A stretch of DNA of 30,408 bases, taken from the IMG/VR virus record IMGVR_UViG_3300038674_000481, positions 1-30,408 of that record, one strand, 5' to 3'. The position numbers and the translations under genes are program-made. Below, piece by piece: positions 1-21,631 of this stretch (the stretch's first letter is position 1; every line of letters begins with the position of its first letter). Source of the DNA: a virus. Taxonomy: Duplodnaviria > Caudoviricetes. The notes under the pieces were generated by a model. It saw only the letters and a list, made by a program, of their open reading frames with translations. It did no database searches and was not told the origin of the DNA.

Positions 1-157
1 CTACTCTTTCCGTATTGTCATCGATCTTACTGAGGACAGCCCTCTTGCATTTCTCCAGCTGTACTATGGAGCATGTCTTCCAGTTATCTATCTGGATCTC
101 TTTCATTATCCTGTCCATGTCAATGCAGACAGTTGTTGTTGTTTCACCATCTTTCAT
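1..157 (-). CDS. hypothetical protein, runs off the left edge (MKDGETTTTVCIDMDRIMKE...)
   Basis: AAGGTGA RBS upstream of ATG at 157; frame open to position 1; hand-translated. Confidence 0.55.
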   Translation of the reverse strand, partial: MKDGETTTTVCIDMDRIMKEIQIDNWKTCSIVQLEKCKRAVLSKIDDNTERV

Positions 158-182
158 GATTTCTTCACCTTCTTTTGTTAGA

Positions 183-235
183 TGATCCGCGTGGGGGGGT
201 GGTATGTGGGGAGTTAGAAAAGCCCACGCGGATCA
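183..235. repeat. 13-bp perfect inverted repeat directly 3' of the tRNA
   Basis: TGATCCGCGTGGG (183-195) / CCCACGCGGATCA (223-235). Confidence 0.85.
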
Positions 236-307
236 AGCCGTTGAAGGGAATCGAACCCTCGACCGTCTGGTTACAGGCCAGTTATTCTTCCACTGAACTA
301 CAACGGC
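236..307 (-). tRNA. tRNA-Thr(UGU), atypical (C33, A27:A43 mismatch), no encoded CCA
   Basis: Cloverleaf: acceptor GCCGTTG/CAACGGC, D arm GTTC-AGTGGAA-GAAT, anticodon arm ACTGG-CCTGTAA-CCAGA, T arm GAGGG-TTCGATT-CCCTT, discriminator U. Confidence 0.85.
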
Positions 308-346
308 AATGTGTTTTAGGGGGTAGGAGGATACCCCCGACGGGAT

Positions 347-697
347 TTAGACTGTTTTGATCATTGCAACTTTTCGGGATACGTTTTCTTTCCAGTATTT
401 CTGTACCATGTACTCAGATTCAAAGCAAACCATCACCAAGTCTCGAATGGTGTAGTCTGGATTCAACGAATGGACATCTCGAATCTTCTGCATCCTTTTG
501 TCCGATTCTGAACTTGTCACGTTTCCCACAAACAAATCAGAATCAGTTTGAACATCCTTCAACTGCCTAAACGTCTGCTTACATGTCCTGCATCTGTGAA
601 CATTGGGCGTGCATCGCCTGTATGTTCGTGCACTATGACAATATGGGCATACTTTCATATCGACAACCTCATCGTATCTGATTTTCAACGAGGTCAC
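347..697 (-). CDS. zinc-ribbon protein with possible C-terminal HTH (start may be the internal MKVCPYC)
   Basis: CPYC...CRTC motifs; helical C-terminus NPDYTIRDLVMVCFESEYMVQKYW. Confidence 0.6.
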   Translation of the reverse strand: MTSLKIRYDEVVDMKVCPYCHSARTYRRCTPNVHRCRTCKQTFRQLKDVQTDSDLFVGNVTSSESDKRMQKIRDVHSLNPDYTIRDLVMVCFESEYMVQKYWKENVSRKVAMIKTV

Positions 698-709
698 CGA
701 GGACGTATC

Positions 710-871
710 TCATGGCTCTGCCTCCTCGTCAATATAAGAAGCATCAAAATTGAAACCGGAAACCGGCCTTTCACCCAATGCGCCCTTAATCCTCATCATG
801 AGTTCAGCAGCTTCGGGCATCTCCAGTTTGTCATCGTACAGGATAGTAAGCTCAATCTTAGTGGAGGTCAT
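710..871 (-). CDS. hypothetical 53-aa protein (MTSTKIELTILYDDKLEMPE...)
   Basis: GGAGG RBS; TAATG coupling with the upstream ORF; hand-translated. Confidence 0.55.
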   Translation of the reverse strand: MTSTKIELTILYDDKLEMPEAAELMMRIKGALGERPVSGFNFDASYIDEEAEP

Positions 872-987
872 TAGTAATTCCTCCAGTCCGTCAATCCTCT
901 TTCATACGCATCCCTCATCTGTTCCTCTTCCCGGCGCATGATGGTGCGGCATTCGTCACACTCTCCGCAGGTGCATGGTCTTGCCAT
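871..987 (-). CDS. 38-aa Cys-rich peptide (MARPCTCGECDECRT...)
   Basis: Fills the gap exactly between the RHH gene and the next ORF; CxCxxCxxC. Confidence 0.5.
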   Translation of the reverse strand: MARPCTCGECDECRTIMRREEEQMRDAYERGLTDWRNY

Positions 988-988
988 G

Positions 989-1165
989 TTATCCGAGTTT
1001 CTTATGATCTTGCCTTTGTACATCATCCAGTTTCACCTTCTTAAGCTGTCTTTCCAACAATACCCTTATAGTGTCCGACCTTGACATTCCGATTTTATCG
1101 GCATACCTATCTAACTTTTCTATTGTCTCGATTGGACACCACGATGATATTGTTTTTCCTGTCAT
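989..1165 (-). CDS. ribbon-helix-helix (CopG-like) transcriptional regulator
   Basis: KTISSWCPIETIEKLDRYADKIGMSRSDTIRVLLE fits the RHH pattern; TATA-like TATATATA upstream. Confidence 0.75.
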   Translation of the reverse strand: MTGKTISSWCPIETIEKLDRYADKIGMSRSDTIRVLLERQLKKVKLDDVQRQDHKKLG

Positions 1166-1328
1166 GCTGTACATCCTACTATGTAAGACACTGTATATAT
1201 AGGTTATGCTATAACTTATCGTATGGCATAGAACGACATTCCTATAGGTTTATAAAAAGCAGCGTGAAACCCCTGAGCTAAAGACTCAGGGGATATAAGC
1301 GTACACTCATCCCTGATTCCGAATGTGA

Positions 1329-1401
1329 TACCGTAAACTATTTATATAATCGGTGCGTATTGAATATTGTCGAAAGACAAAAGGTGACTAAGATGACAAC
1401 A
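1329..1401 (+). promoter_or_regulatory. 73-bp promoter/RBS/start module, copy 1
   Basis: BRE-like CCGTAAAC, TTTATATA box, TTGTC-GAAA-GACAA inverted repeat, AGGTGA RBS, ATGACAACA; 66/73 identical to 1975-2047. Confidence 0.85.
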
Positions 1402-1617
1402 ATCCAGCAAGTAAGAGAAATGACCGATGAACAGATTATGGCCGAAATGAGAAAGATCGCAGCAGCTACAATCGGAATGCCTACTGTAGAACAGACGGTT
1501 GAGCAATCCATGTATTACACTGTAATGGCTCAGAGAAAGAACATTGATCCAAAGCCAAAGATTCAGGCCGCAGGATATGGTGTCTACGAGAAGGCAGTTT
1601 CAGAGGGGTGGTTCTGA
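1393..1617 (+). CDS. 74-aa hypothetical protein (cargo gene 1)
   Basis: ATG after AGGTGA RBS and TATA promoter. Confidence 0.75.
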   Translation: MTTIQQVREMTDEQIMAEMRKIAAATIGMPTVEQTVEQSMYYTVMAQRKNIDPKPKIQAAGYGVYEKAVSEGWF

Positions 1618-1785
1618 GTGATCCTACTTAACTCCCTTCCTTCTGATCTGCGTGATTTTGTGATACTGTCTGACAACTATACAGTAGATGATGACGGGAA
1701 CGTGTATGATCCATATTACGAGGAGTATCCATCTGAAGAACAGATCAGGGAACAGATGGAATACCAGAGAGAACGGGTGGACTAA
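1618..1785 (+). CDS. 55-aa highly acidic protein (cargo gene 2; MILLNSLPSDLRDFVILSDNYTVDDDGNVYDPYYEEYPSEEQIREQMEYQRERVD)
   Basis: GTG abuts the previous stop; GAGGGGTG RBS; TAATG overlap with the next gene; not in the supplied ORF track. Confidence 0.7.
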   Translation: MILLNSLPSDLRDFVILSDNYTVDDDGNVYDPYYEEYPSEEQIREQMEYQRERVD

Positions 1786-1982
1786 TGCCCCGCCCCTCCC
1801 TAATTCTTCCCCTTGTAACAATAATGGGAATCCCTGAGCTCGTCAAAATGGGTTACGATCAACAGCAGATAGCAGATTATTACAACACACATGAGTATTT
1901 CCAAAGAGCTGGAATCAAAGTATCGCAGCAGAGGATATCCGATTATATGCGAAAATACGATATTAAGAAGAGTGTACCGTAA
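1785..1982 (+). CDS. small HTH-like DNA-binding protein (cargo gene 3)
   Basis: GYDQQQIADYY...VSQQRISDYMRKYDI resembles a helix-turn-helix. Confidence 0.65.
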   Translation: MPRPSLILPLVTIMGIPELVKMGYDQQQIADYYNTHEYFQRAGIKVSQQRISDYMRKYDIKKSVP

Positions 1983-2047
1983 ACTATATATATAATCGGT
2001 ACATAGTATGTATTGTCGAAAGACAAAAGGTGACTAAGATGACAACA
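1975..2047 (+). promoter_or_regulatory. 73-bp promoter/RBS/start module, copy 2
   Basis: Direct repeat of 1329-1401; last 37 nt identical. Confidence 0.85.
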
Positions 2048-2302
2048 GGTACAACATATACATACGAATGCTATGATGGATGCACATGTCGGAGATTCAC
2101 GGAAAAACAAATGGAAAAAGAAACCAGAATCCGCAATGCCAGGGGGTATTCTTGGTTTGAAAATTATGAAATTCCTGTCGATGTCGCGCGGGAAGAAGGA
2201 CTTGGAAAATATCCCTCAATCCAAGAAGTAAAAAAAGTATACAATGGTCAAAAAATGAAACGGTTGAGGGATTTGCAGAGTGGCTATGAGGATGAGGAAT
2301 AA
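2039..2302 (+). CDS. 87-aa hypothetical protein (cargo gene 4)
   Basis: ATG after the duplicated promoter/RBS; 8-bp hairpin GATGAGGA/TCCTCATC at its 3' end. Confidence 0.75.
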   Translation: MTTGTTYTYECYDGCTCRRFTEKQMEKETRIRNARGYSWFENYEIPVDVAREEGLGKYPSIQEVKKVYNGQKMKRLRDLQSGYEDEE

Positions 2303-2328
2303 TCCTCATCAGTATTTCCGAGGTCAAT

Positions 2329-2421
2329 ATGTCAGGCTACAATCTCGACAAATCACGCCATGCGGTATTCACGCTGCACTATCATCTAATCTCTGAACAG
2401 TGGGCTAATGACAAAAATTGA
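2329..2421 (+). pseudogene. tnpA: truncated IS200-family Y1 transposase
   Basis: MSGYNLDKSRHAVFTLHYHLI matches the TnpA N-terminal HxVxxLxYHLI motif; stops after 30 codons, so no HUH motif or catalytic Tyr. Confidence 0.75.
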
Positions 2422-2537
2422 GAGCCAGCCCGACAAAATAGAAAAATCTGAAGGAGATGAAGCATAGTTTGAGGAATACCCGTCATTCATGGTGGGGAGG
2501 GTTCAACGGTTGTTATCCCAATGTTGGATACATAACT

Positions 2538-3338
2538 TCATACCGTAATCAGCCCGCTTGCACGGACAATGGATATAATATCTATGTTGATGGCGTTTGT
2601 TGCTGCGGTTGCCTTTGTGGCAGCTATATTGACCACATGGTTGAGACTAGTAGATGGAATGGTTACTGCTAAACCATACCATTTATAATTGCCTGTGGTT
2701 ACTGTTACATTTCCTGTTCCCAGTGACCCACTTGTCGTATCTGTAACGGATATAGTTAGATCGTTTGTGGTGCCTGCTGATGATTTTGCTCTCACCCATA
2801 CGATGTAATCAGCAGGTTCCAGGAATACCTCGTCTACGGCTATAGCTGCCATATAGCGACTATTGCCTGAGCTTACAAGGGTCGTAACTGGATTACTTGC
2901 TGCACCTGCATCCACGGTAGAAGATGTTACTCCTGCCATGCCTGCATTATCGGATAACATGCTTACCCCCTCAACGCCATAGCAATATGCATTGACAGAG
3001 TATACCTGCGTTGTTCCGATGGACTCTACATAGTTTATATCGCTTATCGTAAACTCTGTCGCCTTGTACATCGTAGGCAGTATGAGAAGCATAGCCCGAC
3101 CTGAAGAACGGAGGTAATCTATTGTCCTTTCTATCCGTGCAGTATCCGGGGAATAAATATGCATACGGAACTCAACTTCTGTTACCCCTGACGAAGACAG
3201 CCACGATACCAGCTTATTGTCTATAGATCTAATATAGTCTATAACATTGTTATCATGCCCTGTAGTCGTTCCGTATGGTCTAGCAAAGGTCAGTTCAATT
3301 CCTGAACTTCTATCGTATATAATATTAGCACTTACCAT
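2538..3338 (-). CDS. tail-tip protein with C-terminal beta-sandwich (CBM-like) domain; paralog of the N-terminal part of 3346-4752
   Basis: Last gene of the tail module; shared VRAxSSAGxTND and IxIDxI motifs; start placed at MVSANIIYD after GAGGT. Confidence 0.6.
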   Translation of the reverse strand: MVSANIIYDRSSGIELTFARPYGTTTGHDNNVIDYIRSIDNKLVSWLSSSGVTEVEFRMHIYSPDTARIERTIDYLRSSGRAMLLILPTMYKATEFTISDINYVESIGTTQVYSVNAYCYGVEGVSMLSDNAGMAGVTSSTVDAGAASNPVTTLVSSGNSRYMAAIAVDEVFLEPADYIVWVRAKSSAGTTNDLTISVTDTTSGSLGTGNVTVTTGNYKWYGLAVTIPSTSLNHVVNIAATKATAATNAINIDIISIVRASGLITV

Positions 3339-3345
3339 GATAACC

Positions 3346-4752
3346 TCATGCTGGTACTGTGTAATGAATAACCAACCGTGGGTGATAATTACTTGCATCC
3401 TGTGAATAGAATGCTATATAATTTTCACTTTCCGCTGATGCTTTCATAAGTATTCCGGTGTCTGTATAGGTGCCGTTGACGTAAGCCTGTATCAGTGTTG
3501 TGATATCCCAGTCATGGTATGCATTATCGGGCACTGTTGAACCTGCAAAGGTGACTGATGCAAATGGTGACGTTCCCTGAGCAGTGTCTGTTGAATCCCT
3601 CCAATCTCCACCTGCATTTGACCAAGCTGTACCAGATGCCCTATTACTCCAGCACACATAAGACGGATCCCATGCTGAAGCTGGCCTGTATACTTGCACT
3701 ATAGTATCATTAGTACGGGTTGTTCCAGATGGATGATACCAATATAATTGGAGTATCGCGCTTGTAACCGTTGCATTTGATGGAATGCCGGATAGATCAA
3801 ATTTCAGTAAAGGTCTGACCGATGTAGAACCGGAGTTTCCAAGATCGTTAAAGGTGTCGGTTGCATATACTGTCGTTGCAGTAGCGGAACGCATTCTATT
3901 ATCGGCTGTGGGGTTCAGAGTTACATCGTATTCAGTTGGATCAGGTGTAGTTTCCTCAACATCAATAACCTGTGATGCCTGCATGTAGGCTATAAGGTCA
4001 ATATAAATATTATTGGTAGTGCTTGTTACTTTCTTTGCTCTAATTTCTATAGTATGCCCCATGCTTGAAGATGGTACTGACCCCTGTAATATGTAATATT
4101 TATAAGAAGATGCGGTCACTGTTGTAGTACGTGTTAACAGTTCAGTGGAAGATGTAACATCATATACTTGCAGGTTAAAATCATTGGTAACGCCTGCACT
4201 GGAATACGCCCGTACTAAAAAAGTATAGGCACCATTCGCCATATAGATTACACCTGCCGACACTGATAGCTTTCTAGTATCGTTGATAGCGGATAGCCTT
4301 GCGCATGATCCGCTTAATGCATTGCTGTCAGTGATTACAGTTGCACCCGTACAATCGGGATCGGCTGCTACTCTTACCTGACCAACGTCACCATAACATG
4401 AGAAGGAGACATCTATAATGTCAACGGATGCTGATACTTCCGTATGTTTGTATGATTTAATAAGCACTTCAGATGAAAAGTCGTAAGTGCCTAATGCAAG
4501 TATAAGGTACCTTTTCTTCCTACTAAAATAATCAAGTAGCCTTCTTACATAAGAAGGGTTTGATGCCCTGATTGTAAACGATACCACCCTAGAACCTGGG
4601 GAATCTAGATAGGTTTCATAGGTTCCATCAGATGTTCTTTTGAAGTTCGTTGCTTCGTTTGAAAAGGTTTTTTCAATGCCATCCTCCACTGATTCAAATA
4701 TGAGTTCCTTTGTACTAACTGGATCGTAGATAAGCAATGGTTCTAACGTCAT
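3346..4752 (-). CDS. tail-tip/adhesin protein with C-terminal DNRLRE-type (disaggregatase-associated) domain
   Basis: ADNRMRS..., RPLLKFDLSGIP..ATVTSAILQLYW, WSNAGGDW, WDITTLIQAY, PRLVI motifs. Confidence 0.7.
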   Translation of the reverse strand: MTLEPLLIYDPVSTKELIFESVEDGIEKTFSNEATNFKRTSDGTYETYLDSPGSRVVSFTIRASNPSYVRRLLDYFSRKKRYLILALGTYDFSSEVLIKSYKHTEVSASVDIIDVSFSCYGDVGQVRVAADPDCTGATVITDSNALSGSCARLSAINDTRKLSVSAGVIYMANGAYTFLVRAYSSAGVTNDFNLQVYDVTSSTELLTRTTTVTASSYKYYILQGSVPSSSMGHTIEIRAKKVTSTTNNIYIDLIAYMQASQVIDVEETTPDPTEYDVTLNPTADNRMRSATATTVYATDTFNDLGNSGSTSVRPLLKFDLSGIPSNATVTSAILQLYWYHPSGTTRTNDTIVQVYRPASAWDPSYVCWSNRASGTAWSNAGGDWRDSTDTAQGTSPFASVTFAGSTVPDNAYHDWDITTLIQAYVNGTYTDTGILMKASAESENYIAFYSQDASNYHPRLVIHYTVPA

Positions 4753-18646: not shown

Positions 18647-19885
18647 TTAGTCCACCTCATTGTATTTTGCAAGTTTGTCCGGGGTCACACCCAACTTATC
18701 ATAGATGTCTTTGCCAGCGCTATAGAGTGCATTTGTGGTTTGTACAGGTGTTTCAGTCCCAGCACCTACTGGATTTGAGCTTCTCATGGCCTTTGTCACC
18801 GCTCTTATTGAATCAGTGTCCGGATTCTTCGCCATGAACTCTTCAAATACCAGTTTGTTTGGCATACATGAATGTAGTTCGGCTACAGCTGCGGCATGTT
18901 CTGCTTTCTTTGCTTCTTCTATTATATGCGATTCGATGCCTGCCTGGATACCGGTCTGAATAATTTCCGGAACCTTTGCAGCCTGTGCTTTGAGGTCCGC
19001 ATTTTCGGCCTCATATGCAGCTATTTTAGCCTTTAATTCTTCGATAGTTGGTTCTTTAGAGTCGCCCATGTTGGGACCTCCTTGAGGTTCTATTTGATTT
19101 TCTGTAGAATCACTATTTAAAACGGGGTTGAGTGGATCATTTGAGACCAGCATATTCACTACATGTAGGGGTTCAACATCTGGAATTTCGTCTCCTACCT
19201 GCAGGTTGGTGTTCCTGGGATACACATAGAATACTCCCATCTGTCCCCACGAGGCTTCCGAAGCAATGCGCTCTTTCAGTTTATCCGGATCGTTAGCATC
19301 CACTTCGTCCATCCATACGTGGAATTCACGGACTTTGATTTTGCGTCCTACATTGTTGATTCTGCCAACATCATACTCATATGTAGAATCAGCAGTGCTC
19401 ATGCCCGGAACTTCTGAGGATGTGATAGGAATGCCACAGCCTACATCTAGGGGACAGGCTGGGGTTTCAGGATACACTATGAGAGAGATACCAGTGCCCT
19501 TCACGCGGTCCACGTTTTTGATAGAATGCCCTCTATAATATTCGGTCTTCCCGAACTCCACCGGAATGGATTCCTGCGAAACGCCCCTATATGCAGCTGA
19601 CTTCATTACCTCCTTTGCTTCCGGAGATAATCCACTAATTTTCATCCAGACCCCCGCATCATACCAGGTATCTGCAATGCTTCCGCTCTCTAGCACCTTA
19701 TGATTGACCCGGATGATGCCTCCTTTCCATGTTTGGAAATCTGATTGAAGTGCCTTTTCAGTCAGTCTGTATACATTGCCTTCGCTGTCCTGGGCCAATG
19801 TTCCTGGAACCGCAGCAAGAAAAGAGATAGTGTCGTCTTCGTCTTCACGTATGGGGTCGTTAAGGGGCTTCGTTGAAAAGATCAT
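18647..19885 (-). CDS. prohead protease/scaffold fusion
   Basis: N-terminal LTEKAL..WKG..IRVNH..RGVSQE..GISLI; C-terminal coiled coil; internal in-frame RBS+ATG at 19069. Confidence 0.7.
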   Translation of the reverse strand: MIFSTKPLNDPIREDEDDTISFLAAVPGTLAQDSEGNVYRLTEKALQSDFQTWKGGIIRVNHKVLESGSIADTWYDAGVWMKISGLSPEAKEVMKSAAYRGVSQESIPVEFGKTEYYRGHSIKNVDRVKGTGISLIVYPETPACPLDVGCGIPITSSEVPGMSTADSTYEYDVGRINNVGRKIKVREFHVWMDEVDANDPDKLKERIASEASWGQMGVFYVYPRNTNLQVGDEIPDVEPLHVVNMLVSNDPLNPVLNSDSTENQIEPQGGPNMGDSKEPTIEELKAKIAAYEAENADLKAQAAKVPEIIQTGIQAGIESHIIEEAKKAEHAAAVAELHSCMPNKLVFEEFMAKNPDTDSIRAVTKAMRSSNPVGAGTETPVQTTNALYSAGKDIYDKLGVTPDKLAKYNEVD

Positions 19886-19906
19886 ATAGATTTTTCAGAA
19901 AAAAAG

Positions 19907-19925
19907 ATATAAAAAGAAGGGTTGA
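19907..19925 (-). promoter_or_regulatory. putative late promoter TCAACCCT-TCT-TTTTATAT
   Basis: 21 nt upstream of the protease ATG (likely leaderless). Confidence 0.65.
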
Positions 19926-19927
19926 GA

Positions 19928-21631
19928 TCAGAAAAGATTCTTCTGCAGCTCGCCATTGATAGGCAGATGCAGCTGATCCCCCGTGTCTACGTCTCTAAGT
20001 CGAATATATCCAGAGATCTTTTTTGAATTTCCACGTGCTACTACATTTGTAACCTTTGCAGTTGCTGTGGTTTCGTAGTGCCTGCCATCTTCAGTAGATG
20101 CATTGATCGTTACTTTGAAATCTCCCATGGTTGTTACCTCGTTGATAGGTTGTTTTAATGTAATGTTCAGAGGGCCTTCTCCATACCTGCCATCTGCAGT
20201 CTTGAGTTTGATCACGCTGGTTCCTATGCCCTGTACAGTAGGCAAAACAAAAGCGTGCTGTGTAATCTGGGTACCTCTTACAATATCGAGTGTTACAAGT
20301 AGATCAGTTCCGGTTGCGCCTTTCGCTTCGGCAGTAGAGGAGCCCATAGCAATCTCTATATTCTTGCTTCCATACCTTCCATTAGAATTGAGTTTGAAAG
20401 TTACCAGGGTTGTGTTGACGTACCGAGGGCTTACTGCTGATGTGACCAGGTCAAGTGTCTGTGAGCCAGTTGATCCGGATGAGTCTGAAACTGTTACAAC
20501 AACTTTGATCTTCTCTGCTGTATCGGTGGTATTTTCCACGGGATCGGGTTCCGGTGTTGGAGTACTTCCTCCTGCTGTTACGTCGATGTTGTCAGTTACC
20601 CCTACTTTGAGGGTGCCCACATTGGTGAATGTGTTTCCTCCACCTGAAATAGAACCCCTGGCATTGGATACTCTAAACCCATTTTTACAGTTCTTAAGAG
20701 TATTGTTTCTGAAGGTCCACTTGTAGGATCCTGATATGGCGTGTTTCGCTTCTGCCATCAGAATAGCATAGCCGACATTGATGTTCTCAAAGAGGTTGTC
20801 TTCTATGATCATGCCAGACATTCCGGCTCCGGCTATGCCGGCGTTGCTGTATCCGTTGTACTTGCCCGACCCGTTCAGGAAGTTGCCTACATTACTGAAG
20901 GTGTTGTCATGGATGCGTACATTAGAACAACCTGCTACATCTGCACTAAACCAAATACCTGAACCGTTCAAGTTTTTGATAGTGTTGTCATGAATATCAA
21001 TGTCCTTGAACGCACCCTTGTCTAGTTCCATGCCTGGGCCTGTGGACCATGAAGCTATTTCAGAATACACATTGTTTCCATATATCTCGAAATCCTCTGC
21101 TCCATATGACAACCTGCAGAAAGAATTCGTTCTGGTCTTACATTTGTTATTTCGGACTACTCCTTTTTCACAGCCGTACATTGCATACAACCCTTCATGT
21201 CCTAGGTCAGCGATAACATTGTTTTCAAAGAGGATATCGTCACATGCTGTAAGTTTCAGGCCATCTATAGCAGAATTGCGCATAATACAGTCCTGCATTT
21301 TGATATCTTCCCCGTTCCTAAGCCAACATAGTACCTGACTGGAAGATCCTCTCACTTGCCCGGGTTGGTTTGAAAAGTTCCCGTCTAAACACACCCTGTC
21401 AAAGTGAATCCCATCAAGGTTATATCCCTGCAGCATCGGTGCGCTGGGGTGTTTTGGAGCCATGTAGATATACGGAATTTCAGTGTCGCTTGCACTGACA
21501 AGCTCAGTGTCTGATTTGCCTATGGTCAGGTTCTTCAGCGTATAGTTCCCGGGCTTGATCTCAATTGTAGACCCTCCCTTTTTAATCGCGCGTGTCAGCT
21601 CAGCCGATGTCTCAACAGATATGGTTGCCAT
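19928..21631 (-). CDS. right-handed parallel beta-helix protein (pectate-lyase/disaggregatase-like) with repetitive beta-rich C-terminus
   Basis: Repeated I.I..N strands; PTPEPDP linker; recurring GRYG/GRHY units. Confidence 0.75.
   Translation of the reverse strand: MATISVETSAELTRAIKKGGSTIEIKPGNYTLKNLTIGKSDTELVSASDTEIPYIYMAPKHPSAPMLQGYNLDGIHFDRVCLDGNFSNQPGQVRGSSSQVLCWLRNGEDIKMQDCIMRNSAIDGLKLTACDDILFENNVIADLGHEGLYAMYGCEKGVVRNNKCKTRTNSFCRLSYGAEDFEIYGNNVYSEIASWSTGPGMELDKGAFKDIDIHDNTIKNLNGSGIWFSADVAGCSNVRIHDNTFSNVGNFLNGSGKYNGYSNAGIAGAGMSGMIIEDNLFENINVGYAILMAEAKHAISGSYKWTFRNNTLKNCKNGFRVSNARGSISGGGNTFTNVGTLKVGVTDNIDVTAGGSTPTPEPDPVENTTDTAEKIKVVVTVSDSSGSTGSQTLDLVTSAVSPRYVNTTLVTFKLNSNGRYGSKNIEIAMGSSTAEAKGATGTDLLVTLDIVRGTQITQHAFVLPTVQGIGTSVIKLKTADGRYGEGPLNITLKQPINEVTTMGDFKVTINASTEDGRHYETTATAKVTNVVARGNSKKISGYIRLRDVDTGDQLHLPINGELQKNLF

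What the first reader, a model, noticed from the sequence alone, without database searches (positions are those of the whole stretch)
1249..2506. Decayed IS200/IS605 element apparently carrying a four-gene cassette into the virus
Seen: TTTAT followed by a bulged hairpin CCCCTGAG-CTAAAGA-CTCAGGGG; about 1 kb of plus-strand genes, opposite to the viral genes; a 30-codon tnpA stub with its RBS; then a second imperfect hairpin followed by TTCAA. Known: IS200/IS605 elements insert 3' of a short T-rich target, have subterminal hairpins and end in TCAA-type sequences. The cargo sits between the left end and tnpA and is bracketed by an imperfect direct repeat CTCATC-N5-TTCCGA (1306-1322 and 2305-2321). 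No tnpB is present. Inference: a non-autonomous peel-and-paste element with passenger genes, mobilisable by host TnpA, which could shuttle anti-defence genes between viruses.
Basis: partly seen in the sequence, partly recalled or inferred. Interest (0 to 1): 0.8.

Follow-up and report, generated by a model that had tools for sequence, protein, structure and literature searches.

The report
Relic of gene-carrying viral IS200 transposon
The two hairpin ends come from two different transposon families and three of the four genes between them occur in related viruses without those ends, so this stretch is likely a dead patchwork; but its broken transposase belongs to a group of transposons, in viruses likely of methanogens, that hold varied passenger genes between their ends and likely move them from site to site.

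Summary
Both ends are real IS200/IS605 ends, but not partners. The left one (1254-1330) is the left end plus the last seven codons of a minus-strand tnpA from a host IS605 (72/79 identical to a Methanomethylovorans plasmid copy); it sits at a TTTAT in a viral TATA-like box and its hairpin loop is inverted against 25 of 25 relatives. The right one (2317-2506) is a twice-deleted tnpA with right end from another clade. ORF1-3 are a virus-native promoter cassette found without IS ends in relatives; near-identical viruses continue after TTTAT with other DNA, not the predicted empty site. So 1254-2506 is not shown to be one mobile unit, and nothing supports anti-defence. No real empty site was found for them. 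ORF4 is likely this copy's former passenger. The scan noted passenger-carrying IS200s before on other DNA (e1-10473347, e1-6002614). New variant of a known kind; interest 0.45.

The parts
989..1174 (-). Ribbon-helix-helix repressor-like viral gene, divergent from the cassette (context)
   Evidence: PF01402 E 2e-4 above cut-off; PHROG repressors
1249..1253 (+). TTTAT target of the family A insertion; part of a TATA-like box of the virus (not part of the element)
   Evidence: 20 of 25 family A left ends have TTTAT at this distance; relatives in X2, X4, X8 match to 1254 and go on with other DNA
1254..1306 (+). Left end of a host IS605 with divergent tnpA/tnpB (family A)
   Evidence: 72/79 identity to NC_019972.1 (L136), which has tnpA and tnpB
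1270..1292 (+). Subterminal hairpin of family A with its 7-nt centre inverted
   Evidence: 25 of 25 distinct family A left-end contexts have the opposite orientation
1307..1330 (-). Last seven codons and stop of the family A tnpA; ends at a junction with the viral promoter unit
   Evidence: YHIRNQG* against YYIRNQG* in L078, L086, L136
1329..1401 (+). Viral promoter/RBS/start unit, copy 1 (archaeal TATA-type, by inspection)
   Evidence: 90% repeat of 1975-2047; heads other genes in runs X2, X4, X5; similar stretch in L149
1393..1617 (+). ORF1, 74 aa, small helical viral protein, no known family
   Evidence: 10 homologue clusters; in L144-L159 without IS ends; model pLDDT 90, no clear fold match
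1618..1785 (+). ORF2, 55 aa, acidic, no known family
   Evidence: 81% identical partner follows ORF1 in L149
1785..1982 (+). ORF3, 65 aa, likely helix-turn-helix regulator
   Evidence: weak HTH_21 hit below cut-off; positional partner in L149 has weak HTH hits; joined to the tail gene in X2
1975..2047 (+). Viral promoter/RBS/start unit, copy 2
2039..2302 (+). ORF4, 87 aa, real small-protein family of unknown function; likely former passenger of the clade B element
   Evidence: five clear homologues at 41-48%; position directly before tnpA as in clade B
2317..2467 (+). Clade B tnpA remnant with RBS region: first 20 codons, 78-nt in-frame deletion, 10 codons, 245-nt deletion with frameshift, C-terminal piece
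   Evidence: 163/193 identity to L147 and 148/172 to L148, both intact PF01797
2468..2506 (+). Clade B right end: GAAT guide-like tetramer 2474-2477, weakened hairpin 2478-2497, TCAA 2503-2506
   Evidence: 35/39 to L148; stem -1.9 kcal/mol against -9.0 in L147
2538..3398 (-). Viral structural-region gene converging on the right end (context)
   Evidence: about 98% conserved in X2 and X3 from 2551 on

Best explanation
The stretch 1254-2506 is a patchwork of a host IS605 left end, a virus-native promoter cassette and a twice-deleted tnpA with right end from a second transposon clade, likely produced by two independent insertions followed by deletions and likely no longer mobile. Shown: the two ends belong to different families; ORF1-3 occur in related viruses without IS ends; the right part derives from a tnpB-less clade whose intact members read target, left end, promoter, one to three passenger genes, tnpA, right end. 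Inferred order: (1) a clade B element, likely carrying the promoter-ORF4 unit as passenger, came to lie between ORF3 and the tail gene; it lost its own left end and took two deletions in tnpA and two changes in its right hairpin. (2) A host IS605 (family A) inserted 3' of TTTAT in the rightward TATA-like box next to the RHH gene; a deletion with 2-nt overlap then joined its tnpA tail to the next viral promoter unit, removing tnpA, tnpB, its right end and the DNA that relatives have there; its hairpin centre inverted. Intact clade B members are inferred to work by the IS608 route: TnpA peels the top strand between the two hairpins as a circle, passengers included, and pastes it 3' of a TTTAT/TTTAA; tnpA is the last gene of the passenger operon.
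For: Left end 72/79 to a divergent tnpA-tnpB element whose right end has the same hairpin type and ends TTCAC, not TTCAA. Right part 84-86% to intact tnpA elements in G198 and G176 whose left end is of another type, absent from the whole window. Hairpin centre inverted against 25 of 25. X8 (0 differences over 1155-1254), X4 (1 over 936-1254) and X2 continue after TTTATA with DNA found nowhere in the window. X2 joins 1943 to 2551 through 38 other letters, X3 shows the same letters before 2551. L149 has promoter-ORF1-2-3 between two head-region genes; 0 of 10 ORF1 loci tested had any of three hairpin motifs. Clade B: 13 of the 79 viral tnpA loci are 60% or more identical and none has tnpB within 1.6 kb (2 at contig edges), whereas 65 of the other 66 do; 8 of 15 have both ends around passengers; in four pairs homology starts at the target and stops at the right end with unrelated flanks.
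Against: No relative was found with ORF4 next to a clade B left end, so ORF4 as passenger rests on position alone; its promoter is the virus's unit, not the one in L147/L148. ORF1-2 and ORF3 are on separate short contigs in X2, not one. No real empty site was found for any clade B element among 281 loci or in 41 relatives of G176; removal in silico gives a plausible open frame in L148 and L202, none in L210 and L214. The distance 1254-2329 (1075 nt) falls within the clade B left-end-to-tnpA range (588-1261), which fits a four-gene passenger as well. TnpA reads hairpin structure rather than sequence (PMC3201880, passages), so non-cognate ends are not proven unusable. The inverted loop was not checked in reads.
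Confidence: 0.6

Rival explanations
1. The clade B element carried all four ORFs (both promoter units); a family A element later inserted upstream and one deletion removed most of A together with the B left end, so the four genes did arrive as cargo but the left end seen today is not theirs.
For: Size fits clade B; both families use TTTAT; promoter-ORF1-2-3 does occupy different loci in related viruses (L149 against the window); nesting of IS605-type elements is reported in Haloquadratum (PMC3119063, passages).
Against: ORF3 already abuts the tail gene at this locus without any IS part in X2/X3; one X2 contig has the promoter unit directly after a motif that in the window lies upstream of the RHH gene; 0 of 10 ORF1 loci had IS hairpins.
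Confidence: 0.17
2. ORF4 is also an ordinary viral cassette gene; only a tnpA-right end piece of clade B landed or was left behind it, and no gene in the window was ever IS cargo.
For: ORF4 has the virus's own 73-nt unit, which heads other genes in relatives; clade B tnpA genes without one or both ends occur in 7 of 15 loci.
Against: All 10 clade B loci with a detectable left end have passengers between it and tnpA; ORF4 is absent from the X2/X3 form of this locus along with the stub.
Confidence: 0.15
3. One reading: 1254-2506 is one non-autonomous element with four passengers, mobilised by a TnpA in trans.
For: Target, left hairpin, cargo, tnpA, right end are in the order of intact clade B elements and of the same size; the left boundary is exact against relatives; TnpA recognises hairpin structure (PMC3201880, passages).
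Against: Ends from two families; left hairpin centre inverted, and only the top-strand form is active in IS608/ISDra2 (PMC3333891, passages); right stem weakened; predicted empty site not found in three runs that reach 1254; no second copy in 281 loci.
Confidence: 0.07

Closest known systems
IS608 / ISDra2 (IS200/IS605 family, Y1 HUH TnpA, peel-and-paste; PMC3201880 and PMC3333891, passages)
   Same: Short T-rich target outside the left end, subterminal hairpins, GAAT-type tetramer before the right hairpin, TCAA terminus 9 nt after it (10 in IS608), PF01797 transposase in the parents.
   Different: Window: non-cognate, damaged ends and broken tnpA. Clade B: no tnpB, and one to three variable passengers between left end and tnpA.
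Methanosarcinaceae IS605 with divergent tnpA and tnpB (e.g. NC_019972.1, L078, L086)
   Same: Source of 1254-1330: 72/79 identity, same target and tnpA tail.
   Different: Only 77 nt remain; hairpin centre inverted; no tnpB, no TTCAC right end.
Transporter IS (tIS; PMC9330008, passages) and the rare cargo-bearing TnpB elements of Altae-Tran 2023 (PMC10691335, passages)
   Same: An IS that holds passenger genes inside its ends.
   Different: [quoted passage not shown]
PATEs of Haloquadratum (PMC3119063, passages)
   Same: Deleted IS605 remnants that keep ends and C-terminal bits of divergent genes; nesting of elements.
   Different: PATEs keep two matching palindromes, carry no genes and can spread; the window's ends do not match and it is single.
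PeSL promoter cassettes of T4-type phages RB49/phi1 (PMC2839356, abstract and outline)
   Same: A repeated strong promoter unit heading different small genes in a variable region of a virus.
   Different: Archaeal TATA-type unit, no terminator stem-loop found in it, only two copies here, mini-circles untested.

Membership tests
IS200/IS605 family (window 1254-2506 as one element) | Y1/HUH TnpA | tested here: inconclusive
   Only remnants; intact parents hit PF01797 at E 1e-35; the HUH and tyrosine regions are deleted in the window
IS200/IS605 family (window 1254-2506 as one element) | Insertion 3' of a short target left outside the element | tested here: met
   TTTAT in 20 of 25 family A ends; relatives diverge at 1254
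IS200/IS605 family (window 1254-2506 as one element) | Subterminal hairpin and TCAA-type terminus at the right end | tested here: met
   35/39 to the right end of L148; stem weakened
IS200/IS605 family (window 1254-2506 as one element) | Left and right ends of the same element family | tested here: not met
   Family A right ends have the A hairpin and end TTCAC; clade B left ends are of another type, absent from the window
IS200/IS605 family (window 1254-2506 as one element) | Top-strand form of the left hairpin | tested here: not met
   Centre inverted against 25 of 25; activity itself untested
IS200/IS605 family (window 1254-2506 as one element) | Precise empty site (target joined to right flank) | tested here: not met
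   Three runs reach 1254 and continue otherwise; no joint 1253-2507; contigs show presence, not absence
IS200/IS605 family (window 1254-2506 as one element) | ssDNA circle excision by TnpA | not testable with these tools
   Needs biochemistry or raw reads from infected cells
IS605 group, divergent tnpA-tnpB (family A) | tnpA pointing to the left end, tnpB and TTCAC right end | tested here: not met
   Only left end and tnpA tail remain: a fragment of a member, not a member
Passenger-carrying tnpA-only clade B (defined here) | Clade B tnpA directly followed by right end, no tnpB | tested here: met
   84-86% DNA identity to L147/L148
Passenger-carrying tnpA-only clade B (defined here) | Clade B left end upstream of promoter and passengers | tested here: not met
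   No match in the window except to the right hairpin
Passenger-carrying tnpA-only clade B (defined here) | Intact members move with their passengers as a unit | tested here: inconclusive
   Exact shared boundaries and unrelated flanks in four pairs, same passenger at different sites in L202/L203/L209; no real empty site
PATE | Two similar near-terminal palindromes, no coding content | tested here: not met
   Hairpins differ; four ORFs inside
PeSL-like promoter cassette | Repeated promoter unit heading different genes in relatives | tested here: met
PeSL-like promoter cassette | Terminator stem-loop and mini-circle formation | tested here: inconclusive
   No plus-strand terminator by a bacterial-type scan; circles not tested

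The most novel reading that the evidence does not exclude
A clade of tnpB-less IS200 elements in methanogen viruses and integrated elements acts as a single-strand gene shuttle: left end plus strong promoter, a swappable slot of early genes (DNA methylase, small acidic proteins, a mini CRISPR-like array), then tnpA as the last gene of that operon; it pastes these expression-ready counter-defence units at TATA-like targets in other viruses, and ORF4 of this virus arrived that way.
Probability: 0.4. Interest if true: 0.7.

Novelty: new variant of a known kind. Interest (0 to 1): 0.45.

Why it matters
For the window: it removes a false single element and shows how IS debris and viral promoter cassettes mimic one. 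For the parent clade: IS200/IS605 elements were described as carrying no cargo save in rare cases (PMC10691335, passages). Eight 1.07-1.75 kb elements with both ends and unrelated passengers give a direct test of whether TnpA moves passenger genes between archaeal viruses, a route of gene exchange that would need no homology, and show tnpB being replaced by genes that may pay for the element's keep. They would also be natural proof that Y1 transposases carry about 1 kb payloads.

Tried and rejected
Phage collection: no match. Tail gene, RBS motif, clade B right-end motif and single tnpA in IMG/VR: nothing. Stub not in the 133 hairpin loci nor in five of their genomes. Rfam on 1-4000: only a tRNA, no omega-RNA-like match. 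ORF1-4: no Pfam above cut-off, no PHROG at E under 0.01, no PADLOC, no solved-structure hit; Atlas blank for ORF1 and unnamed clusters for ORF4; folds of ORF1 (best Z 6.3, rmsd 2.0, 51 aligned, helical hairpin) and ORF4 (best Z 4.1) are below meaning. ORF4 alignment in IMG/VR gave one weak locus, L281, not examined for ends beyond a blank blastn. The 13/17 direct repeat as a cargo boundary: rejected, near chance. Spacers of the L147 array hit only their own locus. Empty site for L148 not found in 41 relatives. The tnpA tree is the quick version, unfinished careful search, 134 columns; L136 and L078 fell out (no hit) and L200 (short); used only for grouping. The bacterial promoter scan is not apt for archaeal promoters. 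Of 20 runs listed six were laid; X1 is probably the source and counts for nothing; its listed pieces do not bridge 1174-1372. Earlier finding e1-5832735 was unrelated.

Full report
Setting. The window is a whole 30,408-nt record of a head-tail virus: terminase, portal, Mu-like capsid, RecT, a tRNA-Thr. The host is likely a Methanosarcinaceae methanogen, inferred from the IS pieces below. The finding lies between an RHH repressor-like gene (989-1174, minus) and a structural-region gene (2538-3398, minus).

Observation. Three were missed: a 73-nt unit (TATA-type box, RBS, start) at 1329-1401 and 1975-2047, 90% identical; a tnpA tail on the minus strand at 1307-1330; and the tnpA C-terminal piece at 2420-2467.

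Left end. Many Methanosarcinaceae loci match from 1249 onward. The best is a Methanomethylovorans hollandica plasmid element, 72/79 over 1249-1326, with a divergent tnpA (PF01797) and an annotated tnpB. In this family A, tnpA points to the left end and ends YYIRNQG; the window has YHIRNQG* at 1330-1307. In five family A elements the right end carries the A-type hairpin and ends TTCAC. Of 25 distinct family A left-end contexts holding the exact 23-mer, 20 have TTTAT at the window's distance and all 25 have the 7-nt centre in the orientation opposite to the window's; the search covered both strands, so it was not biased. [quoted passage not shown]

Right part. None of the 133 loci matched 1331-2600. 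A search of 284 genomes found 4 at E 0.001 or better, two of them real parents, G198 and G176. The window's 2317-2506 aligns at 163/193 and 148/172 with their intact 153- and 149-aa tnpA genes and right ends, with deletions of 78 and 245 nt at the same places against both. Two changes weaken the right stem from -9.0 to -1.9 kcal/mol. The parents' left end is a different type, common before tnpA-tnpB or tnpB in 18 of 284 genomes, and is absent from the window. So the two ends are not partners.

Relatives of the virus. Six runs of contigs were laid. X8 matches 1155-1254 with no difference, X4 936-1254 with one, X2 1139-1254 with 21; the X8 and X2 contigs go on as a TATA-like run and then DNA found nowhere in the window, and the remaining 214 nt of the X4 contig align nowhere in 200-4200. 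The insertion point is thus real, but what follows it in relatives is not the 2507 flank. An X2 contig joins 1943 (inside ORF3) through 38 other letters to 2551, and X3 shows the same letters before 2551: ORF3 meets the structural gene with no ORF4, stub or right end. Another X2 contig has the promoter unit from 1329 preceded by a 12-nt motif that in the window lies at 1183, upstream of the RHH gene. The unit heads a different gene in X2 and X4 and recurs about 430 nt after ORF1 in X5. In contig AMWB02018723.1 (L149), a virus with the same head genes, promoter-ORF1-ORF2-ORF3 (76% DNA identity over 1358-1795; ORF3 only 43% over 37 aa, E 0.04) lie between two other genes; 0 of 10 ORF1 loci tested (of 14 fetched; the rest were duplicates or fragments) had any of three IS hairpin motifs. 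ORF1-3 are therefore a virus-native cassette. Caveat: these contigs are short and ORF1-2 and ORF3 are not on one X2 contig.

The parent clade. In G198 and G176 the elements read TTTAT, left end, a shared promoter, unrelated small ORFs (in G198 also three CRISPR-like repeats), tnpA, right end; 1438 and 1171 nt; both lie near integrase genes, one beside ArdC. Eighteen protein clusters are 70% or more identical to this tnpA. An alignment scan of IMG/VR found 157 relatives and kept 79 loci. The 13 at 60% or more have no tnpB within 1.6 kb (11 with room, 2 at contig edges; L211 has one further off on the other strand); 65 of the other 66 have tnpB. Of these 13 plus the two genomic loci, 10 have a left end, always with one to three ORFs before tnpA; 8 have both ends (1065-1750 nt; the end of L212/L213 may lie 5 nt further); L204 and L209 show only the left, L211 only the right, L205-L208 neither (two are cut by contig edges). 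In four pairs, homology begins at the target pentamer and stops at the right end, with unrelated flanks; passengers are unrelated in three pairs and shared in L202/L203/L209. One passenger is a C5 DNA methylase, the other 11 viral passengers and a related ORF scanned have no Pfam or PHROG family. A quick tree puts these 15 tnpA in one group (SH-aLRT 99) with five chromosomal ones, four of them with tnpB, so the clade likely arose from tandem tnpA-tnpB elements by loss of tnpB. Against: no real empty site in 281 loci or 41 related genomes; removal in silico yields a hydrophobic open frame across the junction in L148 and L202, a short one in L147, none in L210 and L214.

Mechanism. Shown: family of each end, deletions, cassette without IS ends, clade architecture. 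Inferred: order of events; ORF4 as passenger (position only); immobility of the window copy; peel-and-paste movement of intact members by the IS608 route, target 5' of the left hairpin and TCAA 3' of the right one (PMC3201880, passages). That paper also says TnpA reads hairpin structure rather than sequence, which leaves the chimera a small chance. Function of ORF1-4 is open: no family, defence or fold match; ORF3 is likely an HTH regulator. A role as early host-interaction genes is a guess from size and promoter repeat.

Literature. Eight searches showed no paper on tnpA-only, passenger-carrying IS200 elements in archaeal viruses; the library lacks most subscription papers and ISfinder, and I read no supplements, where such elements could be listed (notably PMC10691335). 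Seen: passages of PMC3333891, PMC3201880, PMC10691335, PMC9330008, PMC3119063 and PMC13565253 (nothing relevant); abstract and outline of PMC2839356; others as listings only. Two earlier unchecked notes of this scan describe passenger-carrying IS200-type cassettes in other archaeal viruses; I did not test them or whether they are the same clade. The labels family A and clade B are mine; reading the repeat as an archaeal promoter and the L147 repeats as CRISPR-like is by inspection and recall.

Verdict. It points to a real, little-described variant of IS200. Interest 0.45; most novel reading 0.4 likely, 0.7 if true.

Noticed in passing
L147:9748-9875 (G198): Three CRISPR-like repeats (two spacers, the second short, last repeat degenerate) inside the clade B element, just before tnpA and next to an ArdC gene; spacers hit nothing else fetched.
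   Followed up: partly
L214:2539-3495: C5 cytosine methylase as passenger of a clade B element with both ends.
   Followed up: partly
window 1328, 1975, 2540: The first 8-9 nt of the promoter unit recur in the last codons of the structural gene, 35 nt right of the right end; relatives differ from the window left of 2551. A cassette integration point or chance.
   Followed up: no
runs X2, X4 at window 1400: The same promoter unit heads another ORF whose first codons include a VYHGT-like motif, recalled as typical of ADP-ribosyltransferase folds; only 30 letters seen.
   Followed up: no
L060, L026, L087, L073, L162, L180, L185: Miniature PATE-like elements in Methanosarcinaceae, some with left and right ends sharing a single hairpin.
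   Followed up: no
window 236-307 (-): tRNA-Thr(TGT) in the virus; possible attachment site or carried tRNA.
   Followed up: no
window 2291-2310: Perfect 8-bp hairpin over the ORF4 stop, just before the tnpA remnant.
   Followed up: no
L149:4968-5554 against window 19885-19928: The ORF1-3 cassette sits between the protease-like and beta-helix genes in L149, where the window has a 42-nt gap: the cassette changes place without IS ends.
   Followed up: partly
L144-L146, L152-L156: Other viruses carrying ORF1 also hold a large ATPase gene cluster next to terminase genes, resembling a conjugation-type cassette by inspection.
   Followed up: no
L205-L209: Clade B tnpA genes kept intact although one or both ends are not detectable, in related viruses; possible domestication or recent end loss.
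   Followed up: no
P0012: An ORF4 homologue with an extra 45-aa C-terminal domain, no Pfam hit.
   Followed up: no
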